A stretch of 64,000 nucleotides of DNA from Candidatus Tectimicrobiota bacterium (GCA_016192455.1 JACPUC010000030.1:1-64000), one strand, 5' to 3'; shown: positions 6,855 through 52,050, numbered from the stretch's first letter. The notes: generated by a model from the sequence alone, not told the origin. Numbers and translations are program-made.

Positions 6855-7982
6855 TCAGCCTTGTAGGACGACCGCGGCGTGCATGCCCTCGAAGGAGGAG
6901 GCGAGGGCGAGGCAGGCTGGGGGGCGCTGGCTGGAGGATGCCGGCGCTCCTGGGGGCGGCGCCGAGCCGGCCAGCCAGAGGGCGCCGTAGGCGGCGTTCA
7001 GGCTGCCGCCCATGGCGCAGGTCTCGCCGGTCCAGCGCTTCAGGGCGATGCTGGGGGGGAGGCGCCCGGCTCCGAAGAGCTGGCGCAGCGCCTCCTGCTC
7101 CTGCTCATCCAGCAGCGTGCCGTTTTCGTTCAGGCAGATGAGCTGAATGGCGTCCGGGGCCAGCCTGGCGTCGCGCAGCGCCATGCGCATCGCCCGCAGC
7201 AGGCCGCTGGAGCCGGGATCGCCGGAGAGGCCGTAGCCCGCGCAGCGCGCGTAGACGCGGGCCCGGCGCGCAACGGCCTGCTCCTCCCTCTCGAGGAGGA
7301 GGCTGACGCAGCCTTCACCGAGGGGGATGTCCGTCTGCCCGCCGCCGAGCATGCCGAGCGCGGCCGCGTAGTAATCGAAGAGGCTGTCGCTCAAACAGTC
7401 TGCCCCGCACGCCAGCAAGGCATCCGCCCTTCTTCCCCGCAGGCTCTCCAGCGCGTAGGCGACCGCTCCCAGCCCCCCTGCCTCGCCCATGGACAACGTG
7501 CACATCACCCCTTGCAAGCCGAAGTGAATGGCGACGACCCCTGGGTGCATGTTCGAGGTGAGGGCCTCGGGGATGACGATGGGGCTGAGCTTCTGTGGGC
7601 CTTGCTCGAGCAGCTCGCGCCAGCCCCGCTCCCGGCTGATGGGGTCTCCGTGCGCGGAGGCGTAGATGATGCCGAGTCGTGGCGCGTCCATCGCCGGCGG
7701 CGCCAGCTCGGCATCGGCGAGCGCCAGGTGGGCGCCGAGCAGCGACAGCTCGGTCAAGCGCGACACATACCCGACGGAGCGGAAGGCGAGGTGATGGTCG
7801 AGCTGAAAGGGGCAGGCGGCGCGCGCGTCGCGCACCTGCGGCGGGGCTTCCGAAGGGGTCTCCCGGCGCGCCGGGGGCGAGGTGGCGAGGCCTGCCTGAA
7901 CGGCCTGCGCGCCGATCCCGAAACACGAGACAATGCCCATGCCGGTGATGACGACCGCCGGCGCACGCTGCGGGCTCTTCAC
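6855..7982 (-). CDS. Ketosynthase-fold protein lacking catalytic residues (chain-length-factor-like)
   Basis: VVITGMGIVS start and GEG motif; catalytic Cys site reads SMGEAGG, His sites read NENGT and GETCA. Confidence 0.75.
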   Translation of the reverse strand: MKSPQRAPAVVITGMGIVSCFGIGAQAVQAGLATSPPARRETPSEAPPQVRDARAACPFQLDHHLAFRSVGYVSRLTELSLLGAHLALADAELAPPAMDAPRLGIIYASAHGDPISRERGWRELLEQGPQKLSPIVIPEALTSNMHPGVVAIHFGLQGVMCTLSMGEAGGLGAVAYALESLRGRRADALLACGADCLSDSLFDYYAAALGMLGGGQTDIPLGEGCVSLLLEREEQAVARRARVYARCAGYGLSGDPGSSGLLRAMRMALRDARLAPDAIQLICLNENGTLLDEQEQEALRQLFGAGRLPPSIALKRWTGETCAMGGSLNAAYGALWLAGSAPPPGAPASSSQRPPACLALASSFEGMHAAVVLQG

Positions 7983-7985
7983 GGG

Positions 7986-9251
7986 CTAGCCTTCCTCCCG
8001 CGCTCGCCCCTTGCGTCGCCGAGGACGCTCCCGATCGCGCGGCGAGCCGGCCACGATGATCGAGGCGTTGCTGCCGCCGAAGCCGGCAGAGTTCGACATG
8101 GCGATCCTCAGCTCGGCGCGGCGCGGGAGATTGGGGACGTAGTCGAGGTCGCAGTCCTTGTCCGGTTCCGCATAGTTCAACGTTGGCGGCACCATCCCGT
8201 GCTGCAGGCTGAGGATGCAGGCGATGAGCTCGACGGCGCTGGCGCTGGCCGTGGTGTGGCCGATGAACGGCTTGATCGTGCTGATGGGGATGGCGCGGGC
8301 GCGCCGCCCGAAGATGGTCTTCACGGCGCGCGTCTCGGCGCTGTCGTTGTGGCGGGTGCCGGTGCCGTGGGCGTTGATGTAGTCGATCTCGTCCGCCCGC
8401 ACCGCCGCGTCGTCGAGCGCCGCGCGCATGGCGCGGGCAAGGCCGGCGCCGGTGGGATTGGGGCGGGTGATGCTGGAGGCGTCGCAGCTCTGGCCGTAGC
8501 CGAGAATCTCCGCCTGCATGGCGGCGCCCCGCCGCCGGGCTGAGTCGTAGGTTTCCAGGATGAGGACGGCGCCCGCCTCGCCGAGGAGCAGGCCGCTGCG
8601 GCGCCGGTCGAAAGGGCAGTACGTCCCCGCGGTGAGGGCGCGCAGCGCGTCGAAGCGCGCCTGTTCGAGGCGAGATACGTCGCTCACGGCCCCCGCCACG
8701 AAGATGGAGGAGTGCCCGGCGCGGAGCGTATCGAGGCCGAAGCCGATCGCCGTCGTGCCGGCAATGCAGGCATTGGTGAACGCCACGCACGGACCGGGAA
8801 GGCGGAGCAAGCGGGCCACGCGCACCGTGGCAAGGTGGTAGGAGCGTTCCAGCACCGCCGGCGCGGGGCAGGCCTGCCAGGGCTCGCCGGCGAGGTAGTC
8901 CCCCTCGCGCTCCTCGCCCCCCAGCGAGGCGATGCTGCAGCCGGCGTTGGCGGCGCGGAGCTGCTCGACGCTCAGGCCAGCGTGGCGCACTGCCTCCGCG
9001 GCGCACCAGAGGCCGAGCTTCGAGGTCTCATCCATGCCGGCCCAGGCGGCTTCCGCATGCACGCGGGCCCGGTCGCCGGGGGGAATCTCACCGGCAATGG
9101 GGGTGCGGAAGCCGGCGGGCTCGAAGGAAGTGATGGGAGCGATGGCGCTCTTAGCCGAGAGGAGCCCATGCCAAAAGGCCTCGATGCCATCCCCGAAGGG
9201 GGTGATGAGGTGCATGCCGGTGATAACGACGCGGGGTCTCTCGGTTTGCAT
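7986..9251 (-). CDS. Beta-ketoacyl-ACP synthase (FabF/type II PKS KS-like), catalytically intact
   Basis: TNACIAG (Cys), INAHGTGT (His), IGHTTA (His), NSAGFGGSN; ATG at 9251. Confidence 0.88.
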   Translation of the reverse strand: MQTERPRVVITGMHLITPFGDGIEAFWHGLLSAKSAIAPITSFEPAGFRTPIAGEIPPGDRARVHAEAAWAGMDETSKLGLWCAAEAVRHAGLSVEQLRAANAGCSIASLGGEEREGDYLAGEPWQACPAPAVLERSYHLATVRVARLLRLPGPCVAFTNACIAGTTAIGFGLDTLRAGHSSIFVAGAVSDVSRLEQARFDALRALTAGTYCPFDRRRSGLLLGEAGAVLILETYDSARRRGAAMQAEILGYGQSCDASSITRPNPTGAGLARAMRAALDDAAVRADEIDYINAHGTGTRHNDSAETRAVKTIFGRRARAIPISTIKPFIGHTTASASAVELIACILSLQHGMVPPTLNYAEPDKDCDLDYVPNLPRRAELRIAMSNSAGFGGSNASIIVAGSPRDRERPRRRKGRAREEG

Positions 9252-9282
9252 TGGGATGCGCTGGATGCTCGGCAGAGCGAGG

Positions 9283-9780
9283 CTAGGAGGAAGGTTCGCG
9301 GCGCGGCACGACTCCGAAGGCCATCTCCGCATCGGCGGCCACCTCGCCGGCCACCAGGCCCCGTCCCTCCACCATCCCTCCACTGGCGAGCGCTTTGAGG
9401 ACCGTCACTTCCAGGTAGAGCGCATCACCTGGAACAACCGGACGACGAAACCGCGCATGGGCGCTGCCAAACAGGAAGAGCTTGTCGTCGAACGCCGTCT
9501 GGGGGGTGCTTTTCCGGAACAGCAGGATCGTCGCCTGGCCGAGCGCTTCCAGGATCAGCGCGCCGGGCATGATCGGTCTGCCGGGGAAATGCCCCTGCAT
9601 GAACCACTCGTTGGCGGTGACGTTCTTCAGGCAGACGATGCGCCGATGCGGCTCGAAGGAGACAATCCGGTCAATGAAGAGGAACGGCGCGCGTTGCGGC
9701 AGGAGCTGAAAAATCTCGTCCTGGGGGGATGCGGTCGGCGCCGCCTGGGCTCCGCGAGCTTGCCGCGGGCGCTGCTGCAT
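9283..9780 (-). CDS. fabZ: 3-hydroxyacyl-ACP dehydratase
   Basis: LPQRAPFLFIDRI, KNVTANEWFMQGHFPGRPIMPGALILEALGQ, FRRPVVPGD motifs; ATG at 9780 after GGGAG. Confidence 0.9.
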   Translation of the reverse strand: MQQRPRQARGAQAAPTASPQDEIFQLLPQRAPFLFIDRIVSFEPHRRIVCLKNVTANEWFMQGHFPGRPIMPGALILEALGQATILLFRKSTPQTAFDDKLFLFGSAHARFRRPVVPGDALYLEVTVLKALASGGMVEGRGLVAGEVAADAEMAFGVVPRREPSS

Positions 9781-9956
9781 GTGACGAATCTCCCGCCCCG
9801 GGCGGCCGCCGAGCCGGCCCTGACTCGAAAGACAGCGCTTCGTCCCCCGCGACCGGGCGCCGCGGAGCCGGAGATTCCCGCCGCGCGACACCCCTCGGGA
9901 CGCCCCAATACCTCCCTGCAACCTCCCCGCCGCGTCGGGCACCGCCGGCCTCGCGC

Positions 9957-10541
9957 TTACTTCCCGCCCTCGCCAAGGTACTGGCGCACCCGCTGGAGGA
10001 AGCCGTCGAGCGACAACTCGTCGGCGCCGCCTTCGCCGCCCGCCGCCACGATCTTCTTGGTTTTGGGGTCGAGGAGATCGACGCTCGAATTGATCGCCCG
10101 CACCCTCTTGGCGCCGCCGCCGGGATCAGCCACGACTCGGAACACCCCCTGGGATAACCCATAGATGAGATGCTCCCCGGCCTGCGTCTTGTGGAGGAAG
10201 AGGACAGCCTCCTCTTCCGGGGCGAGGGTCGGCGTGCCGGTGACTTTCATCACCAGCTTGCCGACGGTTCCCCCAAGCTGGCGGATGGTGAGGCTCTTCC
10301 GCCCCTCGCCCTTGAGAGTCTCGCTGACATCAACGGTGAGGTAGGTGTAGATTTTGCCCTTCTCCTCATCCCAGACGCTCCGCACGGTCTTGAACTTCCC
10401 CACCACGATTGCGTCTGCGTTGAGCGTCAGCTCCTTCAGGCTGTACCTCACCATGGTCGTCGCGGCTGCCGGCAGCGCCAGAAACGCCAGCATCCCCAGG
10501 ATGCAGCTCAGGGAGACCCCGATCCTCATGCTCCGCCCCAT
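9957..10541 (-). CDS. Secreted hypothetical beta-rich protein
   Basis: Signal peptide (…LAFLALPAAA); SLKELTLNADAIVVG…IYTY…VSETLKG…GGTVG…EEAVLFL pattern; GC3-rich coding-like codon usage. Confidence 0.7.
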   Translation of the reverse strand: MGRSMRIGVSLSCILGMLAFLALPAAATTMVRYSLKELTLNADAIVVGKFKTVRSVWDEEKGKIYTYLTVDVSETLKGEGRKSLTIRQLGGTVGKLVMKVTGTPTLAPEEEAVLFLHKTQAGEHLIYGLSQGVFRVVADPGGGAKRVRAINSSVDLLDPKTKKIVAAGGEGGADELSLDGFLQRVRQYLGEGGK

Positions 10542-10642
10542 AGGTCGTTCCTTTCACCTCATGCAACGAACCGACACCTTGCAGGGCCGGCAGTGCAGCG
10601 TCGTGCCCAACCAGCTCGGCGGCGACACCGAGGAGCCTCCGT

Positions 10643-11380
10643 TCAGGTGTAGATGCCGCCATCGACCTGCACCACGGCGCCGGTCATGTAGCTCGCCATG
10701 GCGGAGGCCAGGAAGACCGCCGCCGAAGCGACCTCCTCGGGCCGCCCGGTGCGTTGCAGGGGGATGGCGCCGAGGTCCACCCCTTTGGCGATGAAGGCGG
10801 CGGTCATGTCGGTCTCGATGAGGCCCGGCGCCAGCGCGTTGACGCGGATTCCCCAGTGCCCCACCTCCTGGGCGAGGGACTTCGTGAAGGCGATGATGCC
10901 GGCCTTCGAGGCGGCGTAGTTCGTCTGACCCTTGCGGCCGCTGAGGCCGGCGATGGAGGAGACGTTGACGATGGCGCCGCTGCGCTGGCGGATCATCTGC
11001 TTCACCACGGCGCGGCTCCACAGGTAGAGTCCCCGCAGATTGGTCGTGATCACCTCGTCCCAGGCTTCCTCGGACATCATGGGGAGGAGGGCGTCGCGCG
11101 TCACCCCGGCATTGTTCACCAGCACGTCAATGGTTCCGAACTCCGCCGTCACCGCCTCCGCCGTGGCGCGGATGGCCTCCGCATCGTTGGCGGGCGCGCA
11201 GCGCGCCGCGGCGCTGCCGCCCTCCCCGCGGATCAGCTCGCACACCTGGCGGGCCGCCTCGGCGTTGCGGTGGTACGTGAGGACAACCTTGGCGCCCTCG
11301 CGGCCATAGGCAACGGCGATGGCTCTGCCGATCCCCCGGGAGCCGCCGGTGACGATGGCCGTTTTCCCCTCCAGCAACAT
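10643..11380 (-). CDS. fabG: 3-oxoacyl-ACP reductase
   Basis: TGGSRGIG, NNAGVTRD, YAASK catalytic motif, PGLIETDM. Confidence 0.92.
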   Translation of the reverse strand: MLLEGKTAIVTGGSRGIGRAIAVAYGREGAKVVLTYHRNAEAARQVCELIRGEGGSAAARCAPANDAEAIRATAEAVTAEFGTIDVLVNNAGVTRDALLPMMSEEAWDEVITTNLRGLYLWSRAVVKQMIRQRSGAIVNVSSIAGLSGRKGQTNYAASKAGIIAFTKSLAQEVGHWGIRVNALAPGLIETDMTAAFIAKGVDLGAIPLQRTGRPEEVASAAVFLASAMASYMTGAVVQVDGGIYT

Positions 11381-11427
11381 GCGGCTCCCTCCCTCCTTGC
11401 CGGTCTCAAGGGCGGCGGCGCCGGCGC

Positions 11428-11706
11428 TCAGACGCCCTGCCCTTCCTTCAGCTTCTTGATCAGGCGCGCCAGGGTATCGACAGAGTAAAACTGCGCAATC
11501 GTCTCCTCGTCTTCCTTGATCCCCACCCCGAACTCCGATTCAATCCCGACAATAATCTCCAGGGCCTCAATGGAATCGAGACCTAGGCCCCCCTCTTCCT
11601 CCCCAAACAAGGGCTGCTTGTCGCCGATCTCCTGCGGCGAGATCTTCATCCGGATGCGTCGCACGATGAGGTCCTTCAGCGCTTTCTTGATGGTTTTCAG
11701 ATGCAT
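11428..11706 (-). CDS. Acyl carrier protein (LFG..GLGLDS type)
   Basis: 92 aa, acidic, GLGLDSIEALE phosphopantetheine site; start overlaps the upstream gene's end. Confidence 0.9.
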   Translation of the reverse strand: MHLKTIKKALKDLIVRRIRMKISPQEIGDKQPLFGEEEGGLGLDSIEALEIIVGIESEFGVGIKEDEETIAQFYSVDTLARLIKKLKEGQGV

Positions 11707-12998
11707 TGCTCGTCTCTCACCGGCGCTGCTGCTGCAATGACGACGCTGCTGCTGGCGCCGCCGAACGCGGCGCTGTGGCAGAGGAGGCTCCGTATCGAAG
11801 CAGCGCGCGGCACATTCGGCACGTAGTCCAGATCGCACCCGGGGTCGGGTTCCTGATAGTTGAGCGTGGCCGGGATTATACCTGTGTCCAGGGCGAAAAG
11901 CCCAGCCGCAAGTTGAAACAGCCCGGCGGCGGCGCCCGTCTCGCCGCAGGCCGACTTCGGGCAGGTGACGGGGATACGCGCCGCCCGCGCTCCGAGCACC
12001 GCTTTCAGGGCCTCGGTTTCCGCGGCGTCGAAGGCAGGCGTCGAGTTGGCGGCCGCGACGATGAGGTCAAGGTCGCCTGGGGAGCAATCCGCCTCGCGCA
12101 GGGCCGCCTGCATCGATCCGATCATGCCGCGCCCGTCCGGATGCAGCGCCCGGGGCTGCCGCGCGGCGTGGGAGGAGCCGCAGCCGGCGACCAGCCCAGC
12201 CACGTTTGCACGACGGGCGGCGGCATGCCGCTGCGTCTCCAGGACAACGGCGGCGGCCCCCTCGCCAAGGAGGAGACCTTTCCGGCGCGCATCGCAGGGG
12301 CAGGAACGCTGCGTTTCCCGGCGGCCGGAGGGGAGGAGCCGAAGCTGCGCGAAGATGCGCAGGAGGATGGCGGAGAGCTCCTCGGCGGCCACCACGAGGG
12401 CGCAGTCGATCCGTCCCAGGCGCAGGGACATGGCCGCCAGCTCCACGGCGGCAAGCCCGGAGGTGGAGCCGCTGACGAGCACGACGCTGGGGCCGGTGAG
12501 CTGCAACCGCAGGTTGATCTCCCCCGCCAGGGCCACGTAGGTGGTGTTCTGAAACTTCAGCGGGCTGACGACCGCGGCGCCCTGCGAGAAGAGATTGAGC
12601 AGGAACGCTTCCGCATCTTCGGTGGCCCCGAACCAGGTCCCCGCGAAGACGCCGATGCGGCTGGGATCGAGCTGGGCCAGCTCCAGGCGCGCGCTGGCGA
12701 TCGCCTCGTCCGCCGCCAGCACGGCGAACTGAACGAGGCGCGGCAGGCGGCAGAAGCGGTCGCTCGCATCGTAGTCCTGCGGCGCGAAGCCGCGCACCTC
12801 ACCCGCCAGGGTGCAGCGGATCGACCCCGGGTCGAAGCGCTCGATGGGCCGGATGCCGTCCTCCGCCGCGCGCAGCGCCTCGCGCCAACGGGCGCGCCCG
12901 ACGCCGAACGGCGACACGATGCCCATTCCCGTGATGGCAACCGCGGCGGCGTGGCGGGGGTCGGAGGCCGGAGAGCTGCGCGAGGCGGCGCGCTTCAT
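11697..12998 (-). CDS. Ketosynthase-fold protein lacking catalytic Cys/His (chain-length-factor-like)
   Basis: Full FabF-like fold but VSGSTSG (no Cys), AANSTP and GETGAA (no His); ATGA overlap with upstream KS at 12995-12998. Confidence 0.8.
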   Translation of the reverse strand: MKRAASRSSPASDPRHAAAVAITGMGIVSPFGVGRARWREALRAAEDGIRPIERFDPGSIRCTLAGEVRGFAPQDYDASDRFCRLPRLVQFAVLAADEAIASARLELAQLDPSRIGVFAGTWFGATEDAEAFLLNLFSQGAAVVSPLKFQNTTYVALAGEINLRLQLTGPSVVLVSGSTSGLAAVELAAMSLRLGRIDCALVVAAEELSAILLRIFAQLRLLPSGRRETQRSCPCDARRKGLLLGEGAAAVVLETQRHAAARRANVAGLVAGCGSSHAARQPRALHPDGRGMIGSMQAALREADCSPGDLDLIVAAANSTPAFDAAETEALKAVLGARAARIPVTCPKSACGETGAAAGLFQLAAGLFALDTGIIPATLNYQEPDPGCDLDYVPNVPRAASIRSLLCHSAAFGGASSSVVIAAAAPVRDEQCI

Positions 12999-14293
12999 AC
13001 CGAGGCCCCTCCGGGAGGCTCCGCCGCGGTCCAGGGATGGCGGGGGAGCTCGGCGCAGGTCATGAAGACGAGGCAGACATTGTTCCCCCCGAAGCCGAAG
13101 GAGTTGGAGAGGGCGATGTGAATTGGTTGCCGACGCGCCACATTCGGCACGTAGTCGAGGTCGCACGCCGGATCGGGGGTCTCGTAGTTGATCGTGGGAG
13201 GCACAAAACCGCAGCGCATCGCCAGGATCGTGGCGATAGCCTCGAGCGCTCCGGCAGCCCCCAGGGTATGCCCCAGCATCGATTTCGTCGAGCTGATGGG
13301 AACTCCGTAGGCGGCGTCTCCGAAGACTGCCTTGATGGCGCGCGTTTCGGCGGCATCGTTCAACTGCGTCGCCGTGCCGTGGGCGTTGATGTACTGCACG
13401 GCGGCGGCATCGACGCCCGCGTCCTGAAGGGCGAGGTGCATGGCCCGCGCCGCGCCGCGGCCTTCCTTGTCGGGGGCGGTCATGTGGTAGGCGTCGCAGC
13501 TCAGGCCGTAGCCGGCCAGCTCGCAGTAGGCCATGGCCCGTCGGCGGCGGGCATGGTCGAAGCTCTCCAGGAGCAGCACCCCCGCGCCCTCTCCAAGGGA
13601 GAAGCCGCTGCGATGCTTATCGAAGGGGCGGATGCGCTCCTTCGTGAGCGCCTTGAGGACGCCAAAGCCGGCGAGCGTCAAGCGCGTCATGGGGTCGACG
13701 CCGACGGCCAAAATCACCGCGGCCTTGCCGCAGCGGATCACATCGACAGCCTGGCCGATGGCCATGGCCCCGGCTGAACAGGCAGTCGACACCGCGAAGC
13801 TCGGGCCGCGGAAGCCGAACTCCGCCGCCAGGTGATCGTTCACCGCATGGGGGGGGAAGGCGCAGAGGCGGGCGGCGTCCCTCGCCCGCCCACCACGGCG
13901 AAGGTAGTCTTCAGCGCCGAGCATGCCGCCAAGCGTGCTGCCTGTGACGAGCCCCCGCCGCTGCGCGGTCTCATCCGCGGCGGACTCGGCGGCGGACAGC
14001 GGCAGGCCGGCATCCCGCACAGCTTGCTCCGCCGCCAACTGCGCCAGCCACGAGGCGCGGTCAAGATCGCCGCCGGGACGTCTCCGCGTGCCGCGCTTGG
14101 CCCGCCGGCCTGGCGATCGGCGGGCAGCGTCCACCTCGCCGCCGTTCGAGGTTCGATAGCCGCTGGTATCGAAGGCCGTGATCGGGCGGATGCCCGATCG
14201 ACCAGCGTACAACCCCTCTGCAAAGGAAACCGTGTCATTTCCCAAGGAGGAGATTACGCCGAGTCCCGTGACCACCACGCGCTGAGCACTCAT
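12995..14293 (-). CDS. Beta-ketoacyl-ACP synthase (FabF/type II PKS KS-like), catalytically intact
   Basis: STACSAG, INAHGTAT, LGHTLG, NSFGFGGNN. Confidence 0.9.
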   Translation of the reverse strand: MSAQRVVVTGLGVISSLGNDTVSFAEGLYAGRSGIRPITAFDTSGYRTSNGGEVDAARRSPGRRAKRGTRRRPGGDLDRASWLAQLAAEQAVRDAGLPLSAAESAADETAQRRGLVTGSTLGGMLGAEDYLRRGGRARDAARLCAFPPHAVNDHLAAEFGFRGPSFAVSTACSAGAMAIGQAVDVIRCGKAAVILAVGVDPMTRLTLAGFGVLKALTKERIRPFDKHRSGFSLGEGAGVLLLESFDHARRRRAMAYCELAGYGLSCDAYHMTAPDKEGRGAARAMHLALQDAGVDAAAVQYINAHGTATQLNDAAETRAIKAVFGDAAYGVPISSTKSMLGHTLGAAGALEAIATILAMRCGFVPPTINYETPDPACDLDYVPNVARRQPIHIALSNSFGFGGNNVCLVFMTCAELPRHPWTAAEPPGGASV

Positions 14294-14840
14294 CGTCGGA
14301 GGCTAGTGACCAGGATGTACCTAACACAGGGCTGCTGCCGCGTCCTTGCGAGCTGATCATTGAGTGACCGCGGCAGCGGGCGAATCCTCTCCACGCCTAA
14401 CCGGGAGAAGGAACCAGGGGATGATGCGGATACCATACACCACGCCGCCCCGCCATGGAAGAGCGGCCGGGCCGGTGGGGAACCGCGCCCCACACCCGGG
14501 GCTGCGCCTTCTGCGAGAGCTGCCCCCGGCGCGCATGGGGAGGAAATCGCCCGCCGGCTGGCGGGCAAGGGAGACGGGCCTTGCCTGTCTGCGCCTGCCC
14601 CGCGGCGGGGGAGGCAGGTGCTCCGCGCAGGCAGGCAGGAGCAAGAGAGGAGGCGGAAAGGAACGCTCGGCTCAGGCGAGCCGAGCGGCAGGGAGCGCCC
14701 GCGATGTCGCTGGACCGTTCGCGCAGGCGACGAAGGGCTGCGAATTCGCAGGGCTCGAATCGTCGGTAAGCGCCGCCAGCGGAACTGAAGACAAGGCAGC
14801 AGGGGAATCTCGGATTCCTTCCCCACCGTCTGCCGGGAGC

Positions 14841-14975
14841 CGCACCCCTTTGCGCGAGCTGCCGCGCAGCTCACAGGGACTGGGGGTGCCTGCCCGCCAC
14901 TGCCTACCTCCGCCGGCACGGCAGACAGGATGTGGCGCGAGGCAGGCGGGGGAGCCAGGGCCCCCCCACAAGAAC
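14841..14975 (-). repeat. Copy of dispersed palindromic repeat family
   Basis: Reverse complement reads GTTCTTGTGGGGGGGCCCTGGCTCCCCCGCC…GGGGTGCG, matching 36478-36560. Confidence 0.6.
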
Positions 14976-15036
14976 TCCCCCTCCCGATGCCGCGAGCAAC
15001 GCATCGAATTCATCAGCGATCGTAGGAGACGCGACG

Positions 15037-16932
15037 CTAGGCGCTGGCCAGGGCCTTGCTGCAGGCGGCGCGAATGCGCTCGAGGTCGTCGGTGTAGAGC
15101 AACCCCAGCTTCGTCAGCAGTTGGCGCAACGCCTGGCTGGTGCTGTTCAGATCGACCTGCACGATGTTCGGCAGAGTGAATCGCTGGGCGTCGAGTTTCC
15201 CCAGGTGGCGGGTGATTTGAGGCAGGAGGTGTTCCTTCACCTTCTCCCAGTCCTCCTTGATGGGGAGGATGAGCAAGTCCACCTGGTTGCGCAGGGCGTG
15301 CAGGGCGTGGGCCACGCTCTCGGCTCGCCGCGCCTCGGCGCTCTCCGGTCGTCTCGCCGCGTGTTCTGGTTCATTCTCGCGCCGCGCCGTGCCGGTCATG
15401 CGTTGGTAAAGTACCTTGATGCCGAGCTCGGAGAAGAACGTCTCCATCGCCCTCCCCAGCGGGGTTGAGCGCGCCAGTTCGGTCACCGCCACCTGCTTGA
15501 GGCTGCCCGTGGCCGCGCCGACCAGTTGCTTCGATTCTTCGTAAAGCTGTTCCTTCAAGCTGGTGACGTATTCTTGTTCTTGATTGGATTTGGCCCAGCT
15601 TCTCAGCAGGCGCTTGGCGGTGAACTTCAAGCCGGCATCATAGAAGTCGCGCCGGGCCAGTCGGTTGAAGATCGATCCCCAGGAGTAGAAGCGGCGCATC
15701 GCCCCGATCGTTTCGGTCTGCAGTTCGTAGGGCGTTATTCCCGCGGGTCGATGCACGGCGTGGTGGCCGTCGAAGTGGCCCCAGTGCTTCGACAAGAACT
15801 CACGGCCCTGCTTCACGAAGGTGGCGTAATCACGCGAGCCGGGAATCGGCGTCAGGATCATGAACTGGATGCTGTCGATATTCCAGCGGCGGGCGAAGTC
15901 CTGCGTCTGCCGGATGGTCTCAACGCTGTCCTCGTCCGAGCCGAGGACGAACATGCCGTGGATTTTGATGTCGTGCTGATGAAGGGCGCGGATCGCGTGC
16001 TCGATGTTTTCCACGGTTTCATGCTTGTTGAAGAGATCGAGGGTCTGCTGGTTGATCGACTCGAAGCCTACGAAGGCGCGCCCGCAATTCGCCCGCTTCA
16101 TCAGCTCGAGCAGCTCGGGGTCGCGCGACAGCTCATGGCGCACCTGAGCGCCCCAGCGCGGGGTCAGCTTGTTGTCGATCATGCCGGTGAGGATTTCCTT
16201 CATGCGTTTGCGGTTCACATTGAAGATATCGTCGGCGAAGAAGAGGTAATCGATCCCCTGCCGCCGCACGTTGAAGGCGATCTCCTCCAGCACGCGGTCG
16301 ACCGAGTGGGCCCGCGAGCCCTTGCCATTGAACGTGGGCACGGAGCAGAAGGAGCAATCGAAGGGGCAACCCCGCGCCGTCATGATCGAGGCCACCTTGA
16401 TGCGTTTGGCCCCCCCACGGAGCAGCGAGTAATCGGCGATGGGGTTGTCGTCCAGGTTTGTCTTCAACGGGCGGTCCTGGTTGTGCACCTTCTCGCCATC
16501 GGCCCAGTAGCTCAGCCCGCGGATGGCGCTGCGGTCGCGATCCCCCTCCAGGGCCTCGAGCAACTCGACGATCGTCTCTTCCCCCTCGCCGCGCACCAGG
16601 TAGTCGGCCTCATCGAGCCCCTCATCCGGCAGGAAGGTGACATGCGTTCCCCCCATCACCACCGGGATGCCCGCGCGCCGCGCCAGCCGGGCAAGCTCAT
16701 AGGCGCGGGGCACGGTGGAGGTCAAGGCCGACAGCCCCACCAGATCGGCCGAGAGGAAGTCCTGCATGTCAACCGCACCCAGCTCTTCAATGTAGACGCT
16801 TACGTCGTAGCCCCGATCGCGCAGGATGGTTCCCAGCAGGACCGAACCGATGCGGGGAAACGGCACGTGGCTGTAAACATGAAGATAGGCGGATTTCGTC
16901 TCGACGAACACGATCTTCTTGATACGCTTCAT
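15037..16932 (-). CDS. B12-binding-domain radical SAM protein with an extra C-terminal domain
   Basis: N-terminal cobalamin-binding-like DLVGLSALT…VVMGGTH; CPFDCSFC radical SAM motif; FFADDIF, GFESIN, TPIPGS; ATG at 16932 after AGAAGGA. Confidence 0.9.
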   Translation of the reverse strand: MKRIKKIVFVETKSAYLHVYSHVPFPRIGSVLLGTILRDRGYDVSVYIEELGAVDMQDFLSADLVGLSALTSTVPRAYELARLARRAGIPVVMGGTHVTFLPDEGLDEADYLVRGEGEETIVELLEALEGDRDRSAIRGLSYWADGEKVHNQDRPLKTNLDDNPIADYSLLRGGAKRIKVASIMTARGCPFDCSFCSVPTFNGKGSRAHSVDRVLEEIAFNVRRQGIDYLFFADDIFNVNRKRMKEILTGMIDNKLTPRWGAQVRHELSRDPELLELMKRANCGRAFVGFESINQQTLDLFNKHETVENIEHAIRALHQHDIKIHGMFVLGSDEDSVETIRQTQDFARRWNIDSIQFMILTPIPGSRDYATFVKQGREFLSKHWGHFDGHHAVHRPAGITPYELQTETIGAMRRFYSWGSIFNRLARRDFYDAGLKFTAKRLLRSWAKSNQEQEYVTSLKEQLYEESKQLVGAATGSLKQVAVTELARSTPLGRAMETFFSELGIKVLYQRMTGTARRENEPEHAARRPESAEARRAESVAHALHALRNQVDLLILPIKEDWEKVKEHLLPQITRHLGKLDAQRFTLPNIVQVDLNSTSQALRQLLTKLGLLYTDDLERIRAACSKALASA

Positions 16933-17771
16933 GAACCGTCCTTCTCGTGTGCTGTACCGCCGAAGGACGCGACCACCGCAAAGCCCCTGCTGCAAGCGCA
17001 TCTCAACGCCTGCCGCTTGGCTTGCTGCGTGGTCATGTCCGGTTCCTTGAGGAATAGAACCCCCGCCGATGCCGATGTTGGGCTGCGAAGAGCACTCCTG
17101 GCACGCCTCGGCGCCCGCCGGGGCCTGAGCGAATCAGGCCACCAAGAGCCACCCGCGGGGATAGGCGGACGAGGTCAAATGAGGTGCGACAGGGCGGCGT
17201 GACCGCCGCGTGCACAGACTGATGAACTATGGCACGAAACGTCGCCTGCCGCAACCCCTAATAGCCGCCCAGGTGCGAGGCCCCGATCGCCGCCGACACC
17301 ATGACGAGGCGGGCCGGCCTCGGCCTGTTCGTGTGCTGCCTTGCCGGCGGTGGCTGGCAGGCCAGGAGACGCGCCCCGTGATTGCATCTCGGCAAGGCGG
17401 TCACCTACGCGTCGAGTTTGTCCGCCGAGGTCCCGAGGTCCTGCTTTTCACCAACCTCATCCGTCGGGCGCCTCGCTGCAGAGTGGCGCGCAGACCTTCT
17501 AGCGGCGAGCGGCCGCTCAGGTCTCAACGCGGTCACGAGTGGGGCGTTCGGGGTGGGGAAGGAATGGGTGTGGTTTGGCGGCATGTTGCTCAGGACCCGC
17601 CGTGGCATGCTGCCCGTCAAGATCACGGGCAACGGCTGCCCTCCAGGGAGGCCGCGCCTCTCCTGGAGGCGAACCGCGCTTGCGTGCCACACCGCTGCCG
17701 CAACGGCGAGGCGCGGCGCCGCGCGGCCGCCTGCGCGCTGTTGATGTGTGTCGGGTAAGGAAGGAGTTAAG

Positions 17772-17848
17772 TGGGGTGGACGAAGGGATTTGAACCCTCG
17801 ACCACTGGAGCCACAATCCAGTGCTCTGCCAGCTGAGCTACGTCCACC
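17772..17848 (-). tRNA. tRNA-His (GTG)
   Basis: GGTGGACGTAGCTCAGCTGGCAGAGCACTGGATTGTGGCTCCAGTGGTCGAGGGTTCAAATCCCTTCGTCCACCCCA; GTG anticodon, G-1, encoded CCA. Confidence 0.97.
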
Positions 17849-18464
17849 ACTGCGCGCTCGACCGATTGACGCCGTTGCTTCCTCGCAGGGAACCTGCATA
17901 TGGAGAGAGGACCTGCCCCTGGAAAGGTGGGCGAACCACTTCTCGCGAAGTGATTCTCATACCTAGGATACATGAGGCGTGTGGCGTTGTCGAGTGCTTT
18001 CGAGGTCGCTGCGTGTCAGCAAGAGAGCCTGGGGGCGGGGGCCGTCCGCTGCCGCTCCGGCGGAAGGAAATGGCGCCACGGTCGCGCCGATCCGTCAGCC
18101 GCCGGCTTCGAAGCCCATAGGTGGAGCTGTACAATCCTGGCCGATGAGCGGTAAAGTACAACGTTCGGCCAGGTGGTCAGGTTGGGCGGAGGCCGCGTCA
18201 CGGGGGTCACCCGGGGGTGGCGGTGGAAGTTTGACTTTCCCCGCGCTAGCGCCGAGAGGGCTTCAGCGCCAGCCCCGGTGACCTGCGGCGTGGAGGTGAC
18301 CGCATCACCCGAGGCGCGCGCCCGGTGGAAGCTCCGCCGCCGTTGAGGCAGGTACTTCGCCCAAGACCACGCTGCTCCGGCTGACGGATTCTCTGGCGGT
18401 CTGATCAAGTAGGAGGTTGTGCCCGGCAATCAGTTCCCTGCGGCTCGTGAAGGAGAAGAAACGA

Positions 18465-19025
18465 ATGGCTCAAGCGAAGATTCTGGCGATCTGTGGCAGC
18501 CTGCGGAAAGCGTCGTTCAATCGGAGAATTCTCGCCTTTGCGGTGCAAGGCGCGAGAGAGGCTGGGGGCGAGGTGGAGGAGTGCGACCTTGATCTGCCGC
18601 TGTACAACGGCGACATTGAGGCGCAGGGCCTGCCGCCCAAGGTCGTGGCGCTGCGCGACAAGATCGCCGCTGCCGATGGCCTGCTCATTGCCGCGCCGGA
18701 GAATAACCACGGGCTGAGCGCGGCGCTGAAGAACGCCATCGACTGGGCCTCGCGGCCCCCGAGCGTCTGGCCAGGGAAAGTTGCGGCATCCTGTGGAGCG
18801 ACGTCGGGGCTGTTCGGCACCGTGCGCGCCTCGATCCAGCTTCGCACCACGCTGGCGGCCGTGCAAGTAACCCTGCTGCCCCAGCACGTCTGGGTCTCCC
18901 AGGTGCACAAGAAGTTTGATGATCAAGAGAAGTTCGGCGATACCGAGGCGATTCAGAAGCTCAAAGAGCTTGGCGCCCTGCTGGTGAAGACGGTGGGGGT
19001 GACGGCCGTGGCGGTGGCATCGTAA
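18465..19025 (+). CDS. NADPH-dependent FMN reductase (flavodoxin-like fold)
   Basis: GSLRKASFN, LPLYNGDIE, PENNHG…LKNAIDWASR motifs; AAGGAG upstream. Confidence 0.9.
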   Translation: MAQAKILAICGSLRKASFNRRILAFAVQGAREAGGEVEECDLDLPLYNGDIEAQGLPPKVVALRDKIAAADGLLIAAPENNHGLSAALKNAIDWASRPPSVWPGKVAASCGATSGLFGTVRASIQLRTTLAAVQVTLLPQHVWVSQVHKKFDDQEKFGDTEAIQKLKELGALLVKTVGVTAVAVAS

Positions 19026-47162: not shown

Positions 47163-47879
47163 TCAGCCGTAGAGCGGTTTCGGCGGCTCAACGACGATCT
47201 CCAGCGTCATGGCGCGGGGCGACTGGTTGGCCAGGAAGACCACGGCGGCGGCGATGTCCTCCGGGTTGATCCAGGTCTCCGGTCGGCCGCCGAAGCCGCG
47301 CGTGCGCTCGTGTTCGATGGTGCCGCGCGGCAGCACCACGGCCGCCTTGACGCCGGTGCCTCGCAGCTCCTCGGCGAGCGCCTTCATCATGCCGAGGACG
47401 GCATGCTCGGAGGCGCAGAAGGCGCTGAAGTTTGCGGTGCCGTCGTGGCCGCCGCCGGAGGTGATGCTGACGATGGCGCCGCTCCCCCTGGCCAGCATGC
47501 CGGGCAGCACCCGCCGCGTGCAGAGGAAAGCGGCGCGCGACTTCACGCTCATCACCGTGTCCCACTCCTGGGGTGAGGTCTCGTGCAGGGGTTTGGAGAA
47601 GTAGTACCCGACGTTGTTCACCAGCAGGTCGATCTGGCCCCAATGTTTGAAGGTGGCCGCGACAAGCCGATCGACATCCTCAACAAGGGTCACGTCGCCC
47701 TGCAACGGCAGCACCTCGGCGCCGGCGGCCTCGACCTCGCGGGCCGCGCTCGCCAAGGTCTCCGGCGTGCGGCCGATCATGGCGAGGCGGGCGCCGCGGC
47801 GCGCGAAGTCGAGGGCCAGCACCCGGCCCAGGCCGCGGCTGGCGCCGGTGATCACGGCAACCTTGCCGGAAAGTTCCAT
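47163..47879 (-). CDS. SDR-fold protein with degenerate catalytic motif
   Basis: TGASRGLG, LVNNVG; YxxxK position reads FCASE. Confidence 0.85.
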   Translation of the reverse strand: MELSGKVAVITGASRGLGRVLALDFARRGARLAMIGRTPETLASAAREVEAAGAEVLPLQGDVTLVEDVDRLVAATFKHWGQIDLLVNNVGYYFSKPLHETSPQEWDTVMSVKSRAAFLCTRRVLPGMLARGSGAIVSITSGGGHDGTANFSAFCASEHAVLGMMKALAEELRGTGVKAAVVLPRGTIEHERTRGFGGRPETWINPEDIAAAVVFLANQSPRAMTLEIVVEPPKPLYG

Positions 47880-48096
47880 GCCTGCTCCTTTCGCTGTGTT
47901 CCCTGGCGTTTGGTTCCCCGCCGTGCGTTGCGTGGTACGCCAATCTTGACGATACTCGAATGCAAGACGTCGGCAGGAGGGTACCTCCGTCGGCAGAGCG
48001 TGGGCAAGCCTCGCGGCGGGCGCTGCTGAAGAGAGGCTGAAGGGTGAGCGCCGCCCGCGCGCGGTTCGGCATTCCAGCGGCGGGGAGCAAGGAGCC

Positions 48097-51956: not shown

Positions 51957-51980
51957 ATCCGGCTCCGTGGCTGGAATCAC

Positions 51981-52050
51981 GCCCCCCGCGAGTGCGCCTG
52001 CGCACTCGCGTAAGCAGGGGGTGTGGGGGATCAATGATCCCCCACGACGT
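51981..52050 (-). repeat. Dispersed repeat copy
   Basis: CGCGAGTGCGC-C-TGCGCACTCGCG hairpin + GGGGTGTGGGGGATCAATGATCCCCCAC. Confidence 0.6.

What the first reader, a model, noticed from the sequence alone, without database searches (positions are those of the whole stretch)
6855..16932. Orphan type II FAS/PKS-like cluster: two KS + dead-KS (CLF-like) pairs, ACP, KR, DH and a B12 radical SAM
Gene order on the minus strand is rSAM > KS1 > CLF1 > ACP > FabG > secreted protein > FabZ > KS2 > CLF2. Each Cys-His-His-intact KS is immediately followed by a paralog lacking all three residues (ATGA overlap for pair 1, 3-bp gap for pair 2). KS-CLF heterodimers with KR and DH but no enoyl reductase are known from highly reducing type II PKS and aryl-polyene systems, which make polyenes. 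Fab-like genes combined with radical SAM genes recall the anammox ladderane candidate clusters. The ACP resembles the aryl-polyene type, but no adenylation enzyme, glycosyltransferase, acyltransferase or exporter of ape clusters is adjacent. Inference: a two-stage elongation pathway for an unusual methylated or cyclised polyene-derived lipid. This is my top candidate for an undescribed system. Caveat: the rSAM is 743 bp upstream of KS1, so its membership is uncertain.
Basis: partly seen in the sequence, partly recalled or inferred. Interest (0 to 1): 0.8.

Follow-up and report, generated by a model that had tools for sequence, protein, structure and literature searches.

The report
Orphan reductase-less fatty-acid-like polyketide cluster
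A rare bacterial gene cluster pairs two working chain-building enzymes with two inactive partner copies and probably makes an unusual unsaturated lipid, while the neighbouring radical enzyme is probably a separate gene.

Summary
Eight same-strand genes (6855-14293) encode KS1, CLF1, ACP, a FabG-type KR, a secreted protein, a FabZ-type DH, KS2 and CLF2. A B12 radical SAM gene lies 743 bp upstream.

Both CLFs are intact, codon-biased ORFs that lack the Cys-His-His triad (Ser/Asn/Glu and Glu/Asn/Glu). In a 54-row tree they fall with nine other "X/Asn/Glu" dead ketosynthases, apart from 43 active ones.

No enoyl reductase, loader or release enzyme is nearby. The best reading is an ER-less type II FAS/PKS-like line in which two KS-CLF heterodimers build an unsaturated, probably polyene, acyl-ACP.

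The closest solved relatives are the anammox "Cluster I" proteins: amxFabZ for the DH, and probably the amxFabF heterodimer for KS1. For KS2 it is the ishigamide ketosynthase. The aryl-polyene enzymes are not close.

The rSAM is probably not part of the operon. The spacer is non-coding and carries a hairpin. The rSAM family is large and conserved across phyla, whereas CLF1 has no relative above 40% identity and CLF2 has none. It is not the ladderane-type rSAM family.

The secreted protein has a TIMP/NTR-like fold and is likely a passenger.

Verdict: new variant of a known kind, moderately interesting. Synteny in relatives could not be tested.

The parts
12995..14293 (-). KS1, active ketosynthase (432 aa; Cys172/His305/Lys337/His342)
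   Evidence: Pfam ketoacyl-synt N and C. The FabF model TIGR03150 gives 434 bits, below its cut-off of 493.75. Best solved relative is 9s5h_B at 350.6 bits, against 325.3 for B. subtilis FabF. Identity to 9s5h_B is about 45% by hand count. Model pLDDT 90.
11697..12998 (-). CLF1, catalytically dead KS paralogue (433 aa; Ser/Asn/Lys/Glu), start overlaps the KS1 stop (ATGA)
   Evidence: Nearest relatives P0002-P0004 are 37-40% identical and also dead. Falls in the clade of 11 X/Asn/Glu CLFs, SH-aLRT 99. GC3 0.86.
11428..11706 (-). Dedicated ACP (92 aa, LGLDS motif), start overlaps the CLF1 end by 10 nt
   Evidence: PP-binding 2.3e-05. The AcpP model TIGR00517 gives 24.2 bits against a cut-off of 70.45. 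Best solved relative is 9ls6_A at 6.5e-07.
10643..11380 (-). FabG-type ketoreductase (245 aa)
   Evidence: adh_short 3.7e-60 and KR 6.8e-19. TIGR01830 gives 289.6 bits against a cut-off of 297.75. FlxB gives 245 against 340.
9957..10541 (-). Secreted protein with a TIMP/NTR-like OB fold (194 aa); probably a passenger gene
   Evidence: No Pfam or NCBIfam hit. Large family: 8723 representatives at E<=1e-3. Model pLDDT 91.2. Best Foldseek PDB hits are agrin NtA, PCOLCE NTR and TIMP-1/2, E 3.7e-04 to 1e-3. The Atlas search gives a TIMP lead at 0.90.
9283..9780 (-). FabZ-type dehydratase (165 aa; His64/Glu78), amxFabZ-like
   Evidence: FabA-like domain 1.9e-27. NF000582 gives 138.6 bits, above its cut-off of 113. 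The five best PDB hits are all amxFabZ, at 132.6-139.9 bits against 118.5 for the next FabZ. The alignment is gap-free at about 48% identity.
7986..9251 (-). KS2, active ketosynthase (421 aa; Cys162/His295/Lys327/His332)
   Evidence: Best solved relative is 6kxd_A, the ishigamide KS, at 270.2 bits. 9s5h_B gives 263.6 and B. subtilis FabF 250. 42% identical to KS1.
6855..7982 (-). CLF2, strongly diverged dead KS paralogue (375 aa; Glu/Asn/Lys/Glu; lacks the 'DLDYVPN' segment), 3 nt after KS2
   Evidence: No relative above 34% identity; best non-self E 6.9e-22. GC3 0.89. Predicted dimer with KS2 scores 0.92, with the best of 3 controls at 0.00.
14294..15036 (-). 743-bp non-coding spacer with a 10-bp GC-rich hairpin (14687..14664) followed by a T/C-rich tail
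   Evidence: No codon periodicity. Hairpin found, though the count of terminator-like sites in the region equals the shuffle expectation (8 against 7.2). No Rfam match at E<=1.
15037..16932 (-). B12-binding radical SAM protein (631 aa); adjacent, membership doubtful
   Evidence: Pfam hits. All NCBIfam models are below cut-off: BchE 172 against 481, PhpK 159 against 600, HpnJ 150 against 578, TIGR04072 128 against 360. Family of at least 1768 proteins at E<=1e-20. Best solved relative is 9ccb_A at 3.7e-18.

Best explanation
An orphan, enoyl-reductase-less type II FAS/PKS-like assembly line of the 'highly reducing type II PKS' kind.

Shown by the sequence: two active ketosynthases, each followed by an inactive paralogue; one dedicated ACP; one FabG-type KR; one FabZ-type DH; no ER, loader or release enzyme.

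Inferred mechanism:
1. The ACP is malonylated by the housekeeping FabD.
2. Each KS forms a heterodimer with the dead paralogue encoded next to it, which acts as a chain length factor shaping the acyl tunnel.
3. One pair primes by decarboxylating malonyl-ACP and makes the short chain. The other pair takes over at a longer chain length.
4. After each condensation the KR and DH give a trans-2-enoyl-ACP. It is not reduced, so a conjugated or multiply unsaturated acyl-ACP grows.
5. The product is handed to a lipid or other acceptor by enzymes encoded elsewhere.

The B12 radical SAM gene upstream is most likely a separate transcription unit with an unrelated role. The secreted TIMP/NTR-like protein is most likely a passenger.
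For: Domain content and intact catalytic residues of KS1, KS2, KR and DH.

Both CLFs lack the Cys/His/His triad yet are full ORFs with GC3 0.86-0.89, like the neighbouring genes.

Tight coupling: ATGA overlap, 10-nt overlap and 3-nt gap.

KS2+CLF2 co-fold score 0.92, best of 3 controls 0.00. This mark was reached by 116 of 157 solved complexes and 2 of 215 mismatched pairs. The three runs share at least 94% of contacts and partner pLDDT is at least 84. My own alignments were used, so the counts hold only roughly. Solved KS dimers exist, so the pass may only reflect likeness.

Tree of 54 KS-like rows: both CLFs lie with nine other X/Asn/Glu dead KSs on one side of an SH-aLRT 99 split from 43 active KSs. 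KS1 and KS2 group at SH-aLRT 92 with KSs of other non-housekeeping clusters rather than with 20 housekeeping FabFs.

Three of the 80 fetched loci (L001, L002, L049) carry the same module, a dead X/Asn/Glu KS with KR, ACP and FabZ-like DH, and no ER on the DNA held.

Precedents seen in papers. The amxFabF2/amxFabFmut heterodimer decarboxylates malonyl-ACP and prefers C6-C8 (bioRxiv 10.64898/2026.05.19.726425; abstract and sections 3, 12, 19 read). The ishigamide KS-CLF is KS2's best solved relative.

Not housekeeping FAS: the ACP scores 24 bits against a 70 cut-off for AcpP, and KS1 is below the FabF cut-off.
Against: No product, starter or release step can be read from the sequence. The housekeeping FabI could act in trans, so the product need not be a polyene.

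KS1 is about as similar to ordinary FabFs (43-48% identity) as to any specialised KS. The KS1/KS2 grouping has only moderate support (92, not starred).

CLF2 sits on a very long branch (3.19), so its placement may be an artefact.

The cognate pairing KS1-CLF1 and KS2-CLF2 was not distinguished from cross-pairing or from KS homodimers.

Conservation of the cluster in relatives could not be tested. The one genome scan returned mostly housekeeping fabF loci and not the window's own genome.

Adjacency of a B12 rSAM to a KS/CLF/ACP/FabZ set recalls anammox Cluster I, so excluding it may be wrong.
Confidence: 0.6

Rival explanations
1. The rSAM belongs to the pathway. The locus would be a non-anammox counterpart of anammox Cluster I, in which a B12 radical SAM enzyme methylates or cyclises short enoyl-ACP intermediates made by KS-CLF, KR and DH. 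This is essentially the first reader's inference.
For: The rSAM is on the same strand and adjacent.

Anammox Cluster I holds ACP, FabZ, an active and a dead FabF, and a cobalamin rSAM (papers read).

The DH's five best solved relatives are amxFabZ. It shares Ile at amxFabZ position 69 and a hydrophobic residue at position 115.

The CLFs share the X/Asn/Glu pattern of Kuste3606.

KS1's best solved relative, 9s5h_B, is probably amxFabF2.
Against: The 743-bp spacer is non-coding and carries a hairpin.

The rSAM family is huge and conserved at 45-57% identity across many phyla, whereas the CLFs have no relatives that close. None of the contig lengths listed for the three closest rSAM relatives recurs among the CLF hits.

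The rSAM is not a TIGR04072 member: 127.9 bits against 360, ranked behind BchE, PhpK and HpnJ.

No phytoene-desaturase homologue was found among the window ORFs scanned.

DH position 96 is Arg, as in canonical FabZ.

Ile at position 69 also occurs in 2 of 5 FabZ genes from ordinary fabF neighbourhoods, so it is not diagnostic.

None of the 3 related CLF loci has an rSAM, though those contigs are short.
Confidence: 0.15
2. A specialised fatty-acid synthase branch whose enoyl intermediates are reduced in trans by the housekeeping FabI. The product would be a saturated, hydroxy or mono-unsaturated acyl chain of defined length for a particular membrane lipid, not a polyene.
For: KS1, KR and DH score close to the FabF, FabG and FabZ models. 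The DH is above the NF000582 FabZ cut-off, and the KR has 289.6 bits against 297.75.

KS1 is 43-48% identical to ordinary FabFs.

The anammox preprint calls its heterodimer a chain length factor in a fatty acid pathway.
Against: A dedicated, atypical ACP and two KS-CLF pairs are unnecessary for ordinary chains.

The DH lacks one of the two basic ACP-docking residues that are canonical. Position 131 is Leu, whereas it is Arg in 4 of 5 ordinary FabZ genes. This suggests a private ACP.

No ER lies within about 30 kb.
Confidence: 0.2
3. A decaying or silent remnant. The CLF-like genes are pseudogenes and the cluster makes nothing.
For: CLF2 is an orphan on a very long branch and lacks an 18-column segment present in all other KS-like sequences aligned. 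A foreign-looking secreted-protein gene splits the cluster.
Against: There are no frameshifts or internal stops. GC3 is 0.86-0.89, matching real genes. Start/stop junctions are coupled, with an SD-like GGGAGGAAGG before CLF2. The CLF2 fold and the interface with KS2 are modelled confidently.
Confidence: 0.04

Closest known systems
Anammox 'Cluster I' (KustE3603-3608: amxACP, amxFabZ, amxFabF2, amxFabFmut, phytoene-dehydrogenase homologue, cobalamin rSAM), the candidate ladderane cluster
   Same: Both have an active FabF-like KS plus a dead paralogue with X/Asn/Glu in place of Cys/His/His. Both have their own ACP and a FabZ variant. The window's DH is about 48% identical, without gaps, to S. 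brodae amxFabZ and shares 2 of its 3 published signature positions. A B12 rSAM is nearby (papers read).
   Different: The window has two KS-CLF pairs and its own KR, and no phytoene-dehydrogenase homologue. Its rSAM is from another family and is separated by 743 bp. The gene order differs: the dead copy is downstream here and upstream in anammox. The ACP shows no specific likeness. KS1 is only about 45% identical to 9s5h_B, hardly more than to ordinary FabF. That 9s5h is the amxFabF heterodimer is inferred, because the preprint text gives no PDB code and its supplements are closed.
Ishigamide-type highly reducing type II PKS (Iga10-Iga16; KS-CLF structure 6KXD)
   Same: Both have a KS-CLF heterodimer with a discrete ACP, KR and DH and no ER. 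In the ishigamide system this gives a polyene acyl chain (function recalled). KS2's best solved relative is 6kxd_A at 270 bits, named 'ishigamide ketosynthase/chain length factor'.
   Different: Identity is only about 41% for KS1. The window's CLFs are nearer to FabFs than to any solved CLF; for example CLF1 scores 214 bits to Thermus FabF and 124 to act CLF. They fall in a clade separate from the two Streptomyces KS-CLF pairs in the tree. There is no amide-forming or tailoring gene here.
Aryl polyene (ape) clusters (ApeO-ApeC, ApeR, two ACPs, ApeQ, ApeI/P, ApeH, export genes)
   Same: Both are FAS-like, use a KS-CLF pair plus a further KS, and have KR and DH without an ER.
   Different: ApeR (7F27, 4EWG) scores below FabF for all four proteins. 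No ApeO or ApeC chain appears in the lists (PDB codes from PMC8358021). All 21 DH hits are FabZ-type. There is only one ACP. No adenylation enzyme, thioesterase, acyltransferase, glycosyltransferase or LolA-like exporter was found.
Uncharacterised KR / dead-KS / ACP / FabZ / KS clusters in uncultured bacteria (L001 Bacterium BMS3Abin15, L002 Nitrospirae MAG, L049 MAG)
   Same: They have the same X/Asn/Glu CLF clade, a FabZ-like DH with Ile at the tunnel position, and their own ACP and KR.
   Different: On the DNA held there is one dead and one active KS each (L001, L002), and on L049 (2.4 kb) only the dead one. Gene order differs. Identities are only 35-42%. L001 continues with a methyltransferase and a nitroreductase, and L002 with a thioester-reductase-type gene.

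Membership tests
Highly reducing (polyene-type) type II PKS | An active KS encoded next to a KS paralogue that lacks the catalytic Cys (CLF), forming a heterodimer | tested here: met
   The triads were read in alignment A1. Adjacency was read directly. The KS2+CLF2 co-fold scores 0.92 with the best control at 0.00, a likeness-type pass. The heterodimer itself is not shown experimentally.
Highly reducing (polyene-type) type II PKS | Discrete ACP, KR and DH present, and no enoyl reductase in the cluster | tested here: met
   No ER-type domain other than the KR itself lies between 1 and 47000. A further SDR is at 47163-48098.
Highly reducing (polyene-type) type II PKS | The KS and CLF fall in the clade of characterised polyene KS-CLFs (Iga11/12 and relatives) | tested here: inconclusive
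   KS2's best solved hit is Iga11, but only 20 bits above FabF. KS1 and KS2 group with Streptomyces KSs at SH-aLRT 92. The CLFs do not group with the two Streptomyces CLFs. No labelled Iga or Ape sequences could be put in the tree.
Highly reducing (polyene-type) type II PKS | The product is a conjugated polyene acyl chain | not testable with these tools
   This needs expression and UV/LC-MS.
Aryl polyene (ape) cluster | ApeO/ApeC-type KS-CLF and ApeR-type KS | tested here: not met
   ApeR (7f27_A) gives 218.7, 196.6, 114 and 55 bits for KS1, KS2, CLF1 and CLF2, in each case below FabFs. No 7F28 or 6QSP chain is listed. For KS2 all 51 hits at E<=1e-40 were shown; for the other three proteins only the best 60.
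Aryl polyene (ape) cluster | Accessory genes: aryl-acid adenylating enzyme, thioesterase, acyl/glycosyltransferases, LolA-like/MMPL export genes, and a second ACP | tested here: not met
   The Pfam scans of flanking ORFs found none within 17 kb. There is a single ACP.
Anammox Cluster I (ladderane candidate) | An active FabF homologue plus a dead homologue with Cys->X, His->Asn, His->Glu | tested here: met
   CLF1 has Ser/Asn/Glu and CLF2 has Glu/Asn/Glu. Kuste3606 has Val/Asn/Glu in Table 2 of PMC2649909.
Anammox Cluster I (ladderane candidate) | amxFabZ signature: Ile69 in the tunnel, Val/Ile115 and Ser/Thr96 in the ACP patch | tested here: inconclusive
   The window DH has Ile85 (= position 69), Leu131 (= 115) and Arg112 (= 96), so 2 of 3 are met. 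In the control, Ile also occurs in 2 of 5 ordinary FabZ genes, and a basic residue at position 115 in 4 of 5.
Anammox Cluster I (ladderane candidate) | Cobalamin rSAM of the lipid-biosynthesis family (NCBIfam TIGR04072) | tested here: not met
   127.9 bits against a cut-off of 360, and only the core matched (residues 79-343).
Anammox Cluster I (ladderane candidate) | Phytoene-dehydrogenase homologue in the cluster | tested here: not met
   No amine-oxidase or phytoene-desaturase Pfam hit in any window ORF scanned. Only selected ORFs were scanned, not every ORF.
Anammox Cluster I (ladderane candidate) | amxACP-type carrier protein | tested here: inconclusive
   The best solved ACP hit is 9ls6_A at 6.5e-07. 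No 7QV0 ACP chain is among the 60 of 73 hits shown.
Housekeeping FAS II (fabH-fabD-fabG-acpP-fabF) | AcpP and FabF above family cut-offs, with fabD/fabH/fabI nearby | tested here: not met
   The ACP scores 24.2 against 70.45. KS1 scores 434 against 493.75 and KS2 341.5 against 493.75. No fabD, fabH or fabI domain was found in the flanks.
Cispentacin-type type II PKS-like (AmcB-AmcH) | NCBIfam equivalogs AmcF, AmcE and AmcB above cut-off | tested here: not met
   AmcF scores 251 (KS1) against 325. AmcE scores 86 against 140. AmcB scores 41.7 against 80.

The most novel reading that the evidence does not exclude
The KS-CLF/ACP/KR/amxFabZ-like DH genes and the adjacent B12 radical SAM enzyme work together. 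The locus would then be the first non-anammox relative of the candidate ladderane cluster. The short-chain-restricted DH and a KS-CLF pair would hand short enoyl-ACPs to a cobalamin rSAM that forms C-C bonds or methylates. The second KS-CLF pair would then extend the modified chain.
Probability: 0.1. Interest if true: 0.85.

Novelty: new variant of a known kind. Interest (0 to 1): 0.5.

Why it matters
KS-CLF heterodimers were long thought to be a polyketide feature. A 2026 preprint reports the first one in a fatty-acid-like pathway, in anammox bacteria, which cannot be manipulated genetically.

The window shows that the same kind of dead partner (X/Asn/Glu), together with an amxFabZ-like dehydratase, also occurs outside that setting. 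It occurs here in duplicate with its own KR, and as single modules in three other uncultured bacteria.

If the cluster can be expressed, it offers a tractable system for asking how such chain length factors divide the work between two ketosynthases. It would also show what lipid an ER-less FAS-like line makes. If the rSAM turns out to be linked, which is unlikely, it would be a comparator for ladderane chemistry.

Otherwise it is one more orphan biosynthetic cluster.

Tried and rejected
1. Synteny. It returned 80 loci, almost all fabG-acpP-fabF housekeeping operons, and not the window's own genome. None of the 80 has a homologue of the rSAM or the secreted protein at E<=1e-5.

The organism, and the records behind P0002 and P0121-P0124, stayed unidentified.

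3. tblastn of the rSAM and of CLF1 against plasmids found no orthologue. For the rSAM, 0 of 52 records cover at least 80% of the query and identity is at most 32%. The CLF1 hits are fabF genes.

4. Rfam found nothing in the spacer at E<=1, so there is no riboswitch there.

5. Genomic-island idea: the 3' end of tRNA-His has no second copy in the window, and no integrase was seen.

6. The Foldseek PDB library ends in April 2026 and lacks 9s5h, so that entry's identity could not be confirmed this way. A text search for '9S5H' found no paper.

7. I first took Ile at the amxFabZ tunnel position as diagnostic. I dropped this after the control.

8. The Atlas search of the rSAM gave only generic names.

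9. Literature searches found no paper describing a cluster of this composition outside anammox bacteria.

Full report
**What is there**

The window is about 65% G+C. Nine ORFs lie head to tail on the minus strand between 6855 and 16932. I refined the starts by comparison with homologues:

| Gene | Coordinates | Length |
|---|---|---|
| rSAM | 15037-16932 | 631 aa |
| KS1 | 12995-14293 | 432 aa |
| CLF1 | 11697-12998 | 433 aa |
| ACP | 11428-11706 | 92 aa |
| KR | 10643-11380 | 245 aa |
| secreted protein | 9957-10541 | 194 aa |
| DH | 9283-9780 | 165 aa |
| KS2 | 7986-9251 | 421 aa |
| CLF2 | 6855-7982 | 375 aa |

Pfam assigns ketoacyl-synt N and C domains to all four KS-like proteins. It assigns a FabA-like hot-dog domain, adh_short/KR, PP-binding, and B12-binding plus Radical_SAM to the others, and nothing to the secreted protein.

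The junctions are:
- KS1/CLF1: ATGA overlap
- CLF1/ACP: 10-nt overlap
- ACP-KR: 47 nt
- KR-secreted protein: 101 nt
- secreted protein-DH: 176 nt
- DH-KS2: 31 nt
- KS2-CLF2: TAG-ccc-GTG, with an SD-like GGGAGGAAGG upstream

**Are the CLFs real?**

In a 20-sequence alignment, KS1 and KS2 keep Cys/His/His plus the Lys. CLF1 has Ser/Asn/Glu and CLF2 has Glu/Asn/Glu. CLF2 also lacks an 18-column segment around the 'DLDYVPN' motif.

Both are uninterrupted ORFs. Their third-position G+C is 0.86 and 0.89, within the range of 0.77-0.94 for the other genes. The 743-bp spacer is flat at 0.69/0.70/0.70.

A co-fold of KS2 with CLF2 scored 0.92 against 0.00 for the best of three controls.
- The mark was reached by 116 of 157 solved complexes and 2 of 215 mismatched pairs.
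- The three runs agree in at least 94% of contacts, and partner pLDDT is at least 84.
- My own alignments were used, so the counts hold only roughly.
- Solved KS dimers exist, so the pass shows likeness rather than binding.

The genes are therefore not decayed pseudogenes.

**How rare are they?**

CLF1's best non-self relative among 5.8 billion proteins is 40% identical. That search found 223 hits at E<=1e-20 among the 8000 word-sharing candidates that were scored.

CLF2's best non-self hit has E 6.9e-22, and the listed hits are 27-34% identical, which is generic KS similarity. Both searches depend on a word index and can miss distant kin.

I classified 163 KS-like sequences: 4 from the window, 4 from loci and 155 hits. 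Of these, 143 have Cys-His-Lys-His and 10 have an X-x-Lys-Glu pattern, the two window CLFs included.

In the 80 loci fetched, three further dead KSs of this type occur (L001, L002, L049). Two Streptomyces loci have CLFs of a different Glu-Asp-Lys-Arg type.

I built a maximum-likelihood tree of 54 rows, chosen by me:
- 4 window proteins
- 9 other X/Asn/Glu proteins
- 2 partner KSs
- 2 Streptomyces KS-CLF pairs
- 20 housekeeping FabFs out of roughly 75 available
- 15 other hits

The tree puts all 11 X/Asn/Glu proteins on one side of an SH-aLRT 99 split. KS1 and KS2 group together with Streptomyces and cluster-associated KSs at SH-aLRT 92, away from the housekeeping FabFs.

CLF2 has a very long branch (3.19), so its exact place is unsure. 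The CLFs are therefore old members of a distinct dead-KS lineage, not recent in-cluster copies of KS1 or KS2.

**Nearest characterised relatives**

Against all PDB sequences:

| Protein | Best hit | Other hits (bits) |
|---|---|---|
| KS1 | 9s5h_B, 350.6 bits | B. subtilis FabF 325.3; Iga11 (6kxd_A) 269.6; act KS 232.9; ApeR (7f27_A) 218.7 |
| KS2 | 6kxd_A, 270.2 bits | 9s5h_B 263.6; FabF 250 |
| CLF1 | Thermus FabF, 213.6 bits | 9s5h_C 182.4; act CLF 124 |
| CLF2 | any KS, at most 95 bits | - |

One search confirms that 6KXD is the ishigamide KS/CLF. PMC8358021 confirms that 7F27 and 4EWG are ApeR.

Entry 9s5h has two different KS-like chains and a sister entry. In chain B the Cys is at index 170 and the first His at 303. 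An offset of 5 fits Cys165/His298 of B. fulgida amxFabF2 in the 2026 preprint on the anammox heterodimer. The preprint text gives no PDB code and its supplements are closed, so this identification is an inference. KS1 is about 45% identical to it by hand count, hardly more than the 43-44% to ordinary FabFs.

The DH result is clearer. Its five best solved relatives are all amxFabZ (7QV0, 8AYD, 8AYI, 8AYB, 8AYC) at 132.6-139.9 bits, against 118.5 for the next FabZ. The codes are confirmed in PMC10139942.

The DH alignment has no gaps and is about 48% identical by hand count. The paper reports 35% between amxFabZ and the canonical FabZ of the same organism.

Of the three published amxFabZ signatures, the window DH has Ile at position 69 and Leu at position 115, but Arg at position 96.

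A control weakens the first signature. Among five FabZ genes from ordinary fabF neighbourhoods, two also have Ile. Four of the five have the canonical basic residue at position 115.

All NCBIfam matches except the DH's generic FabZ model are below their cut-offs. This includes FabF, FabG, AcpP, the cispentacin Amc models and the flexirubin FlxB model.

**The rSAM**

It has B12-binding and radical SAM domains plus a C-terminal extension of about 200 residues without a Pfam match.

Its best NCBIfam scores are BchE 172, PhpK 159, HpnJ 150 and the 'lipid biosynthesis B12-binding/radical SAM' model TIGR04072 128. All are far below their cut-offs. Its best solved relative is 9ccb_A at 3.7e-18.

The family is large. 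At least 1768 proteins have E<=1e-20. The 120 listed are nearly all full-length at 45-57% identity (one at 97%), and those that carry names come from Rokubacteria, NC10, Nitrospirae, Leptospirillia and others.

A family this widely conserved, beside CLFs that have no relative above 40% identity, argues against co-inheritance. The contig lengths of the three closest rSAM relatives (26812, 60145, 174993) do not recur among the CLF1 or CLF2 hits. That is weak, indirect evidence.

The 743-bp spacer is non-coding. On the coding strand it holds a 10-bp, 8-GC hairpin with a T/C-rich tail at 14687-14664. However, the number of terminator-like sites in the region does not exceed the shuffle expectation (8 against 7.2). 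It has no Rfam match.

I put the chance that the rSAM works with the cluster at about 15%.

**The secreted protein**

It has a signal peptide ending A-x-A before a conserved Thr-Thr (consensus). It belongs to a large family of proteins of about 190 aa with no Pfam model. The family has 8723 representatives at E<=1e-3, of which 1653 are at 1e-10 or better.

It folds confidently (pLDDT 91.2) into an OB/NTR fold. Its best PDB matches are agrin NtA, PCOLCE NTR and TIMP-1/2, with E 3.7e-04 and upward and TM 0.35-0.59. The Atlas search gives the same lead at 0.90.

Nothing links it to acyl chemistry, so I treat it as a passenger. It does, however, split the cluster into KS1-CLF1-ACP-KR and DH-KS2-CLF2.

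**Surroundings**

- Downstream: a membrane-anchored STAND/TPR NTPase (3690-6533) and a matrixin-domain protein (473-2842).
- Upstream of the rSAM: tRNA-His (17772-17847), an FMN reductase (18417-19025, plus strand), a Schlafen/AlbA_2 protein and the nuo operon.
- No loader, thioesterase, acyltransferase, ER, phytoene-desaturase homologue or PPTase was found among the ORFs scanned.
- No repeat of the tRNA 3' end marks an island.

**Mechanism**

Shown: the parts list and the intact or missing catalytic residues.

Inferred:
- Heterodimers KS1-CLF1 and KS2-CLF2.
- Priming by malonyl-ACP decarboxylation, as reported for amxFabFhet (abstract).
- Iterative KR/DH cycles without enoyl reduction, giving an unsaturated chain.
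- Division of labour by chain length between the two pairs.
- Release by enzymes encoded elsewhere.

The DH's constricted-tunnel residue and missing basic patch residue suggest a private ACP and perhaps a short-chain preference. This is by analogy only.

**What stayed open**

- Synteny in relatives. The only genome scan was swamped by housekeeping fabF loci.
- The organism.
- The identity of 9s5h.
- The product.

Four literature searches found no description of such a cluster outside anammox bacteria. Rattray et al. 2009 did note rSAM- and PDH-containing FAS clusters in some Deltaproteobacteria (passages seen).

**Verdict**

This is a real, intact, rare cluster. It is a new variant of the ER-less type II FAS/PKS kind, with an evolutionary link to the dead-KS and FabZ variants of the anammox cluster. 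The link to the radical SAM enzyme, and hence the 'cyclised or methylated' product, is not supported.

Noticed in passing
window 9957-10541 (-) and 473-2842 (+): The secreted protein has a TIMP/NTR-like fold. Its family is very large and has no Pfam model. The predicted mature N-terminus is conserved as Thr-Thr after an A-x-A cleavage site. A matrixin (M10 metalloprotease) domain protein lies 7 kb away. A bacterial protease-inhibitor role is conceivable but was not tested.
   Followed up: partly
window 3690-6533 (-): A 947-aa STAND NTPase (AAA_16/NACHT-like) with about seven TPR_12 repeats and apparent N-terminal transmembrane helices, directly downstream of CLF2 on the same strand (321-nt gap). 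It has no DNA-binding domain.
   Followed up: no
window 14664-14687 (-): A perfect 10-bp GC-rich hairpin with a T/C-rich tail in the middle of the 743-bp, 70% G+C non-coding spacer. It may be the rSAM terminator. There is no Rfam match.
   Followed up: partly
window 17772-17847 (-), 17405-17700 (-): tRNA-His lies upstream of the rSAM. Between them is a stretch with minus-strand codon periodicity but no Pfam match. No second copy of the tRNA 3' end occurs in the window.
   Followed up: partly
window 19267-20733 (-), 50928-52034 (-): Defence-like genes: a Schlafen AlbA_2 + HATPase_c_4 protein, and a pentapeptide-repeat + TIR protein.
   Followed up: no
window 54812-56905 (+): An ORF that combines two universal stress protein domains, two PCP_red (protochlorophyllide-reductase 57 kD-like) stretches and a rubredoxin-like domain. 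This is an unusual fusion.
   Followed up: no
L002 1167-1640 and 2892-3317: In the related Nitrospirae cluster, two PD-(D/E)XK (PDDEXK_3) genes are interleaved between the dead KS, ACP, DH and KS genes.
   Followed up: no
window 12995-14293 (-), KS1 residues 56-78: An Arg-rich insertion of about 20 residues (pLDDT below 50 at residues 60-74) that is absent from the other KSs aligned.
   Followed up: no
L071 4476-6937, L075 9995-12549: Two Streptomyces loci carry KS-CLF pairs whose CLF has Glu-Asp-Lys-Arg at the catalytic columns. In the tree these group with their own KS, separately from the X/Asn/Glu clade.
   Followed up: partly
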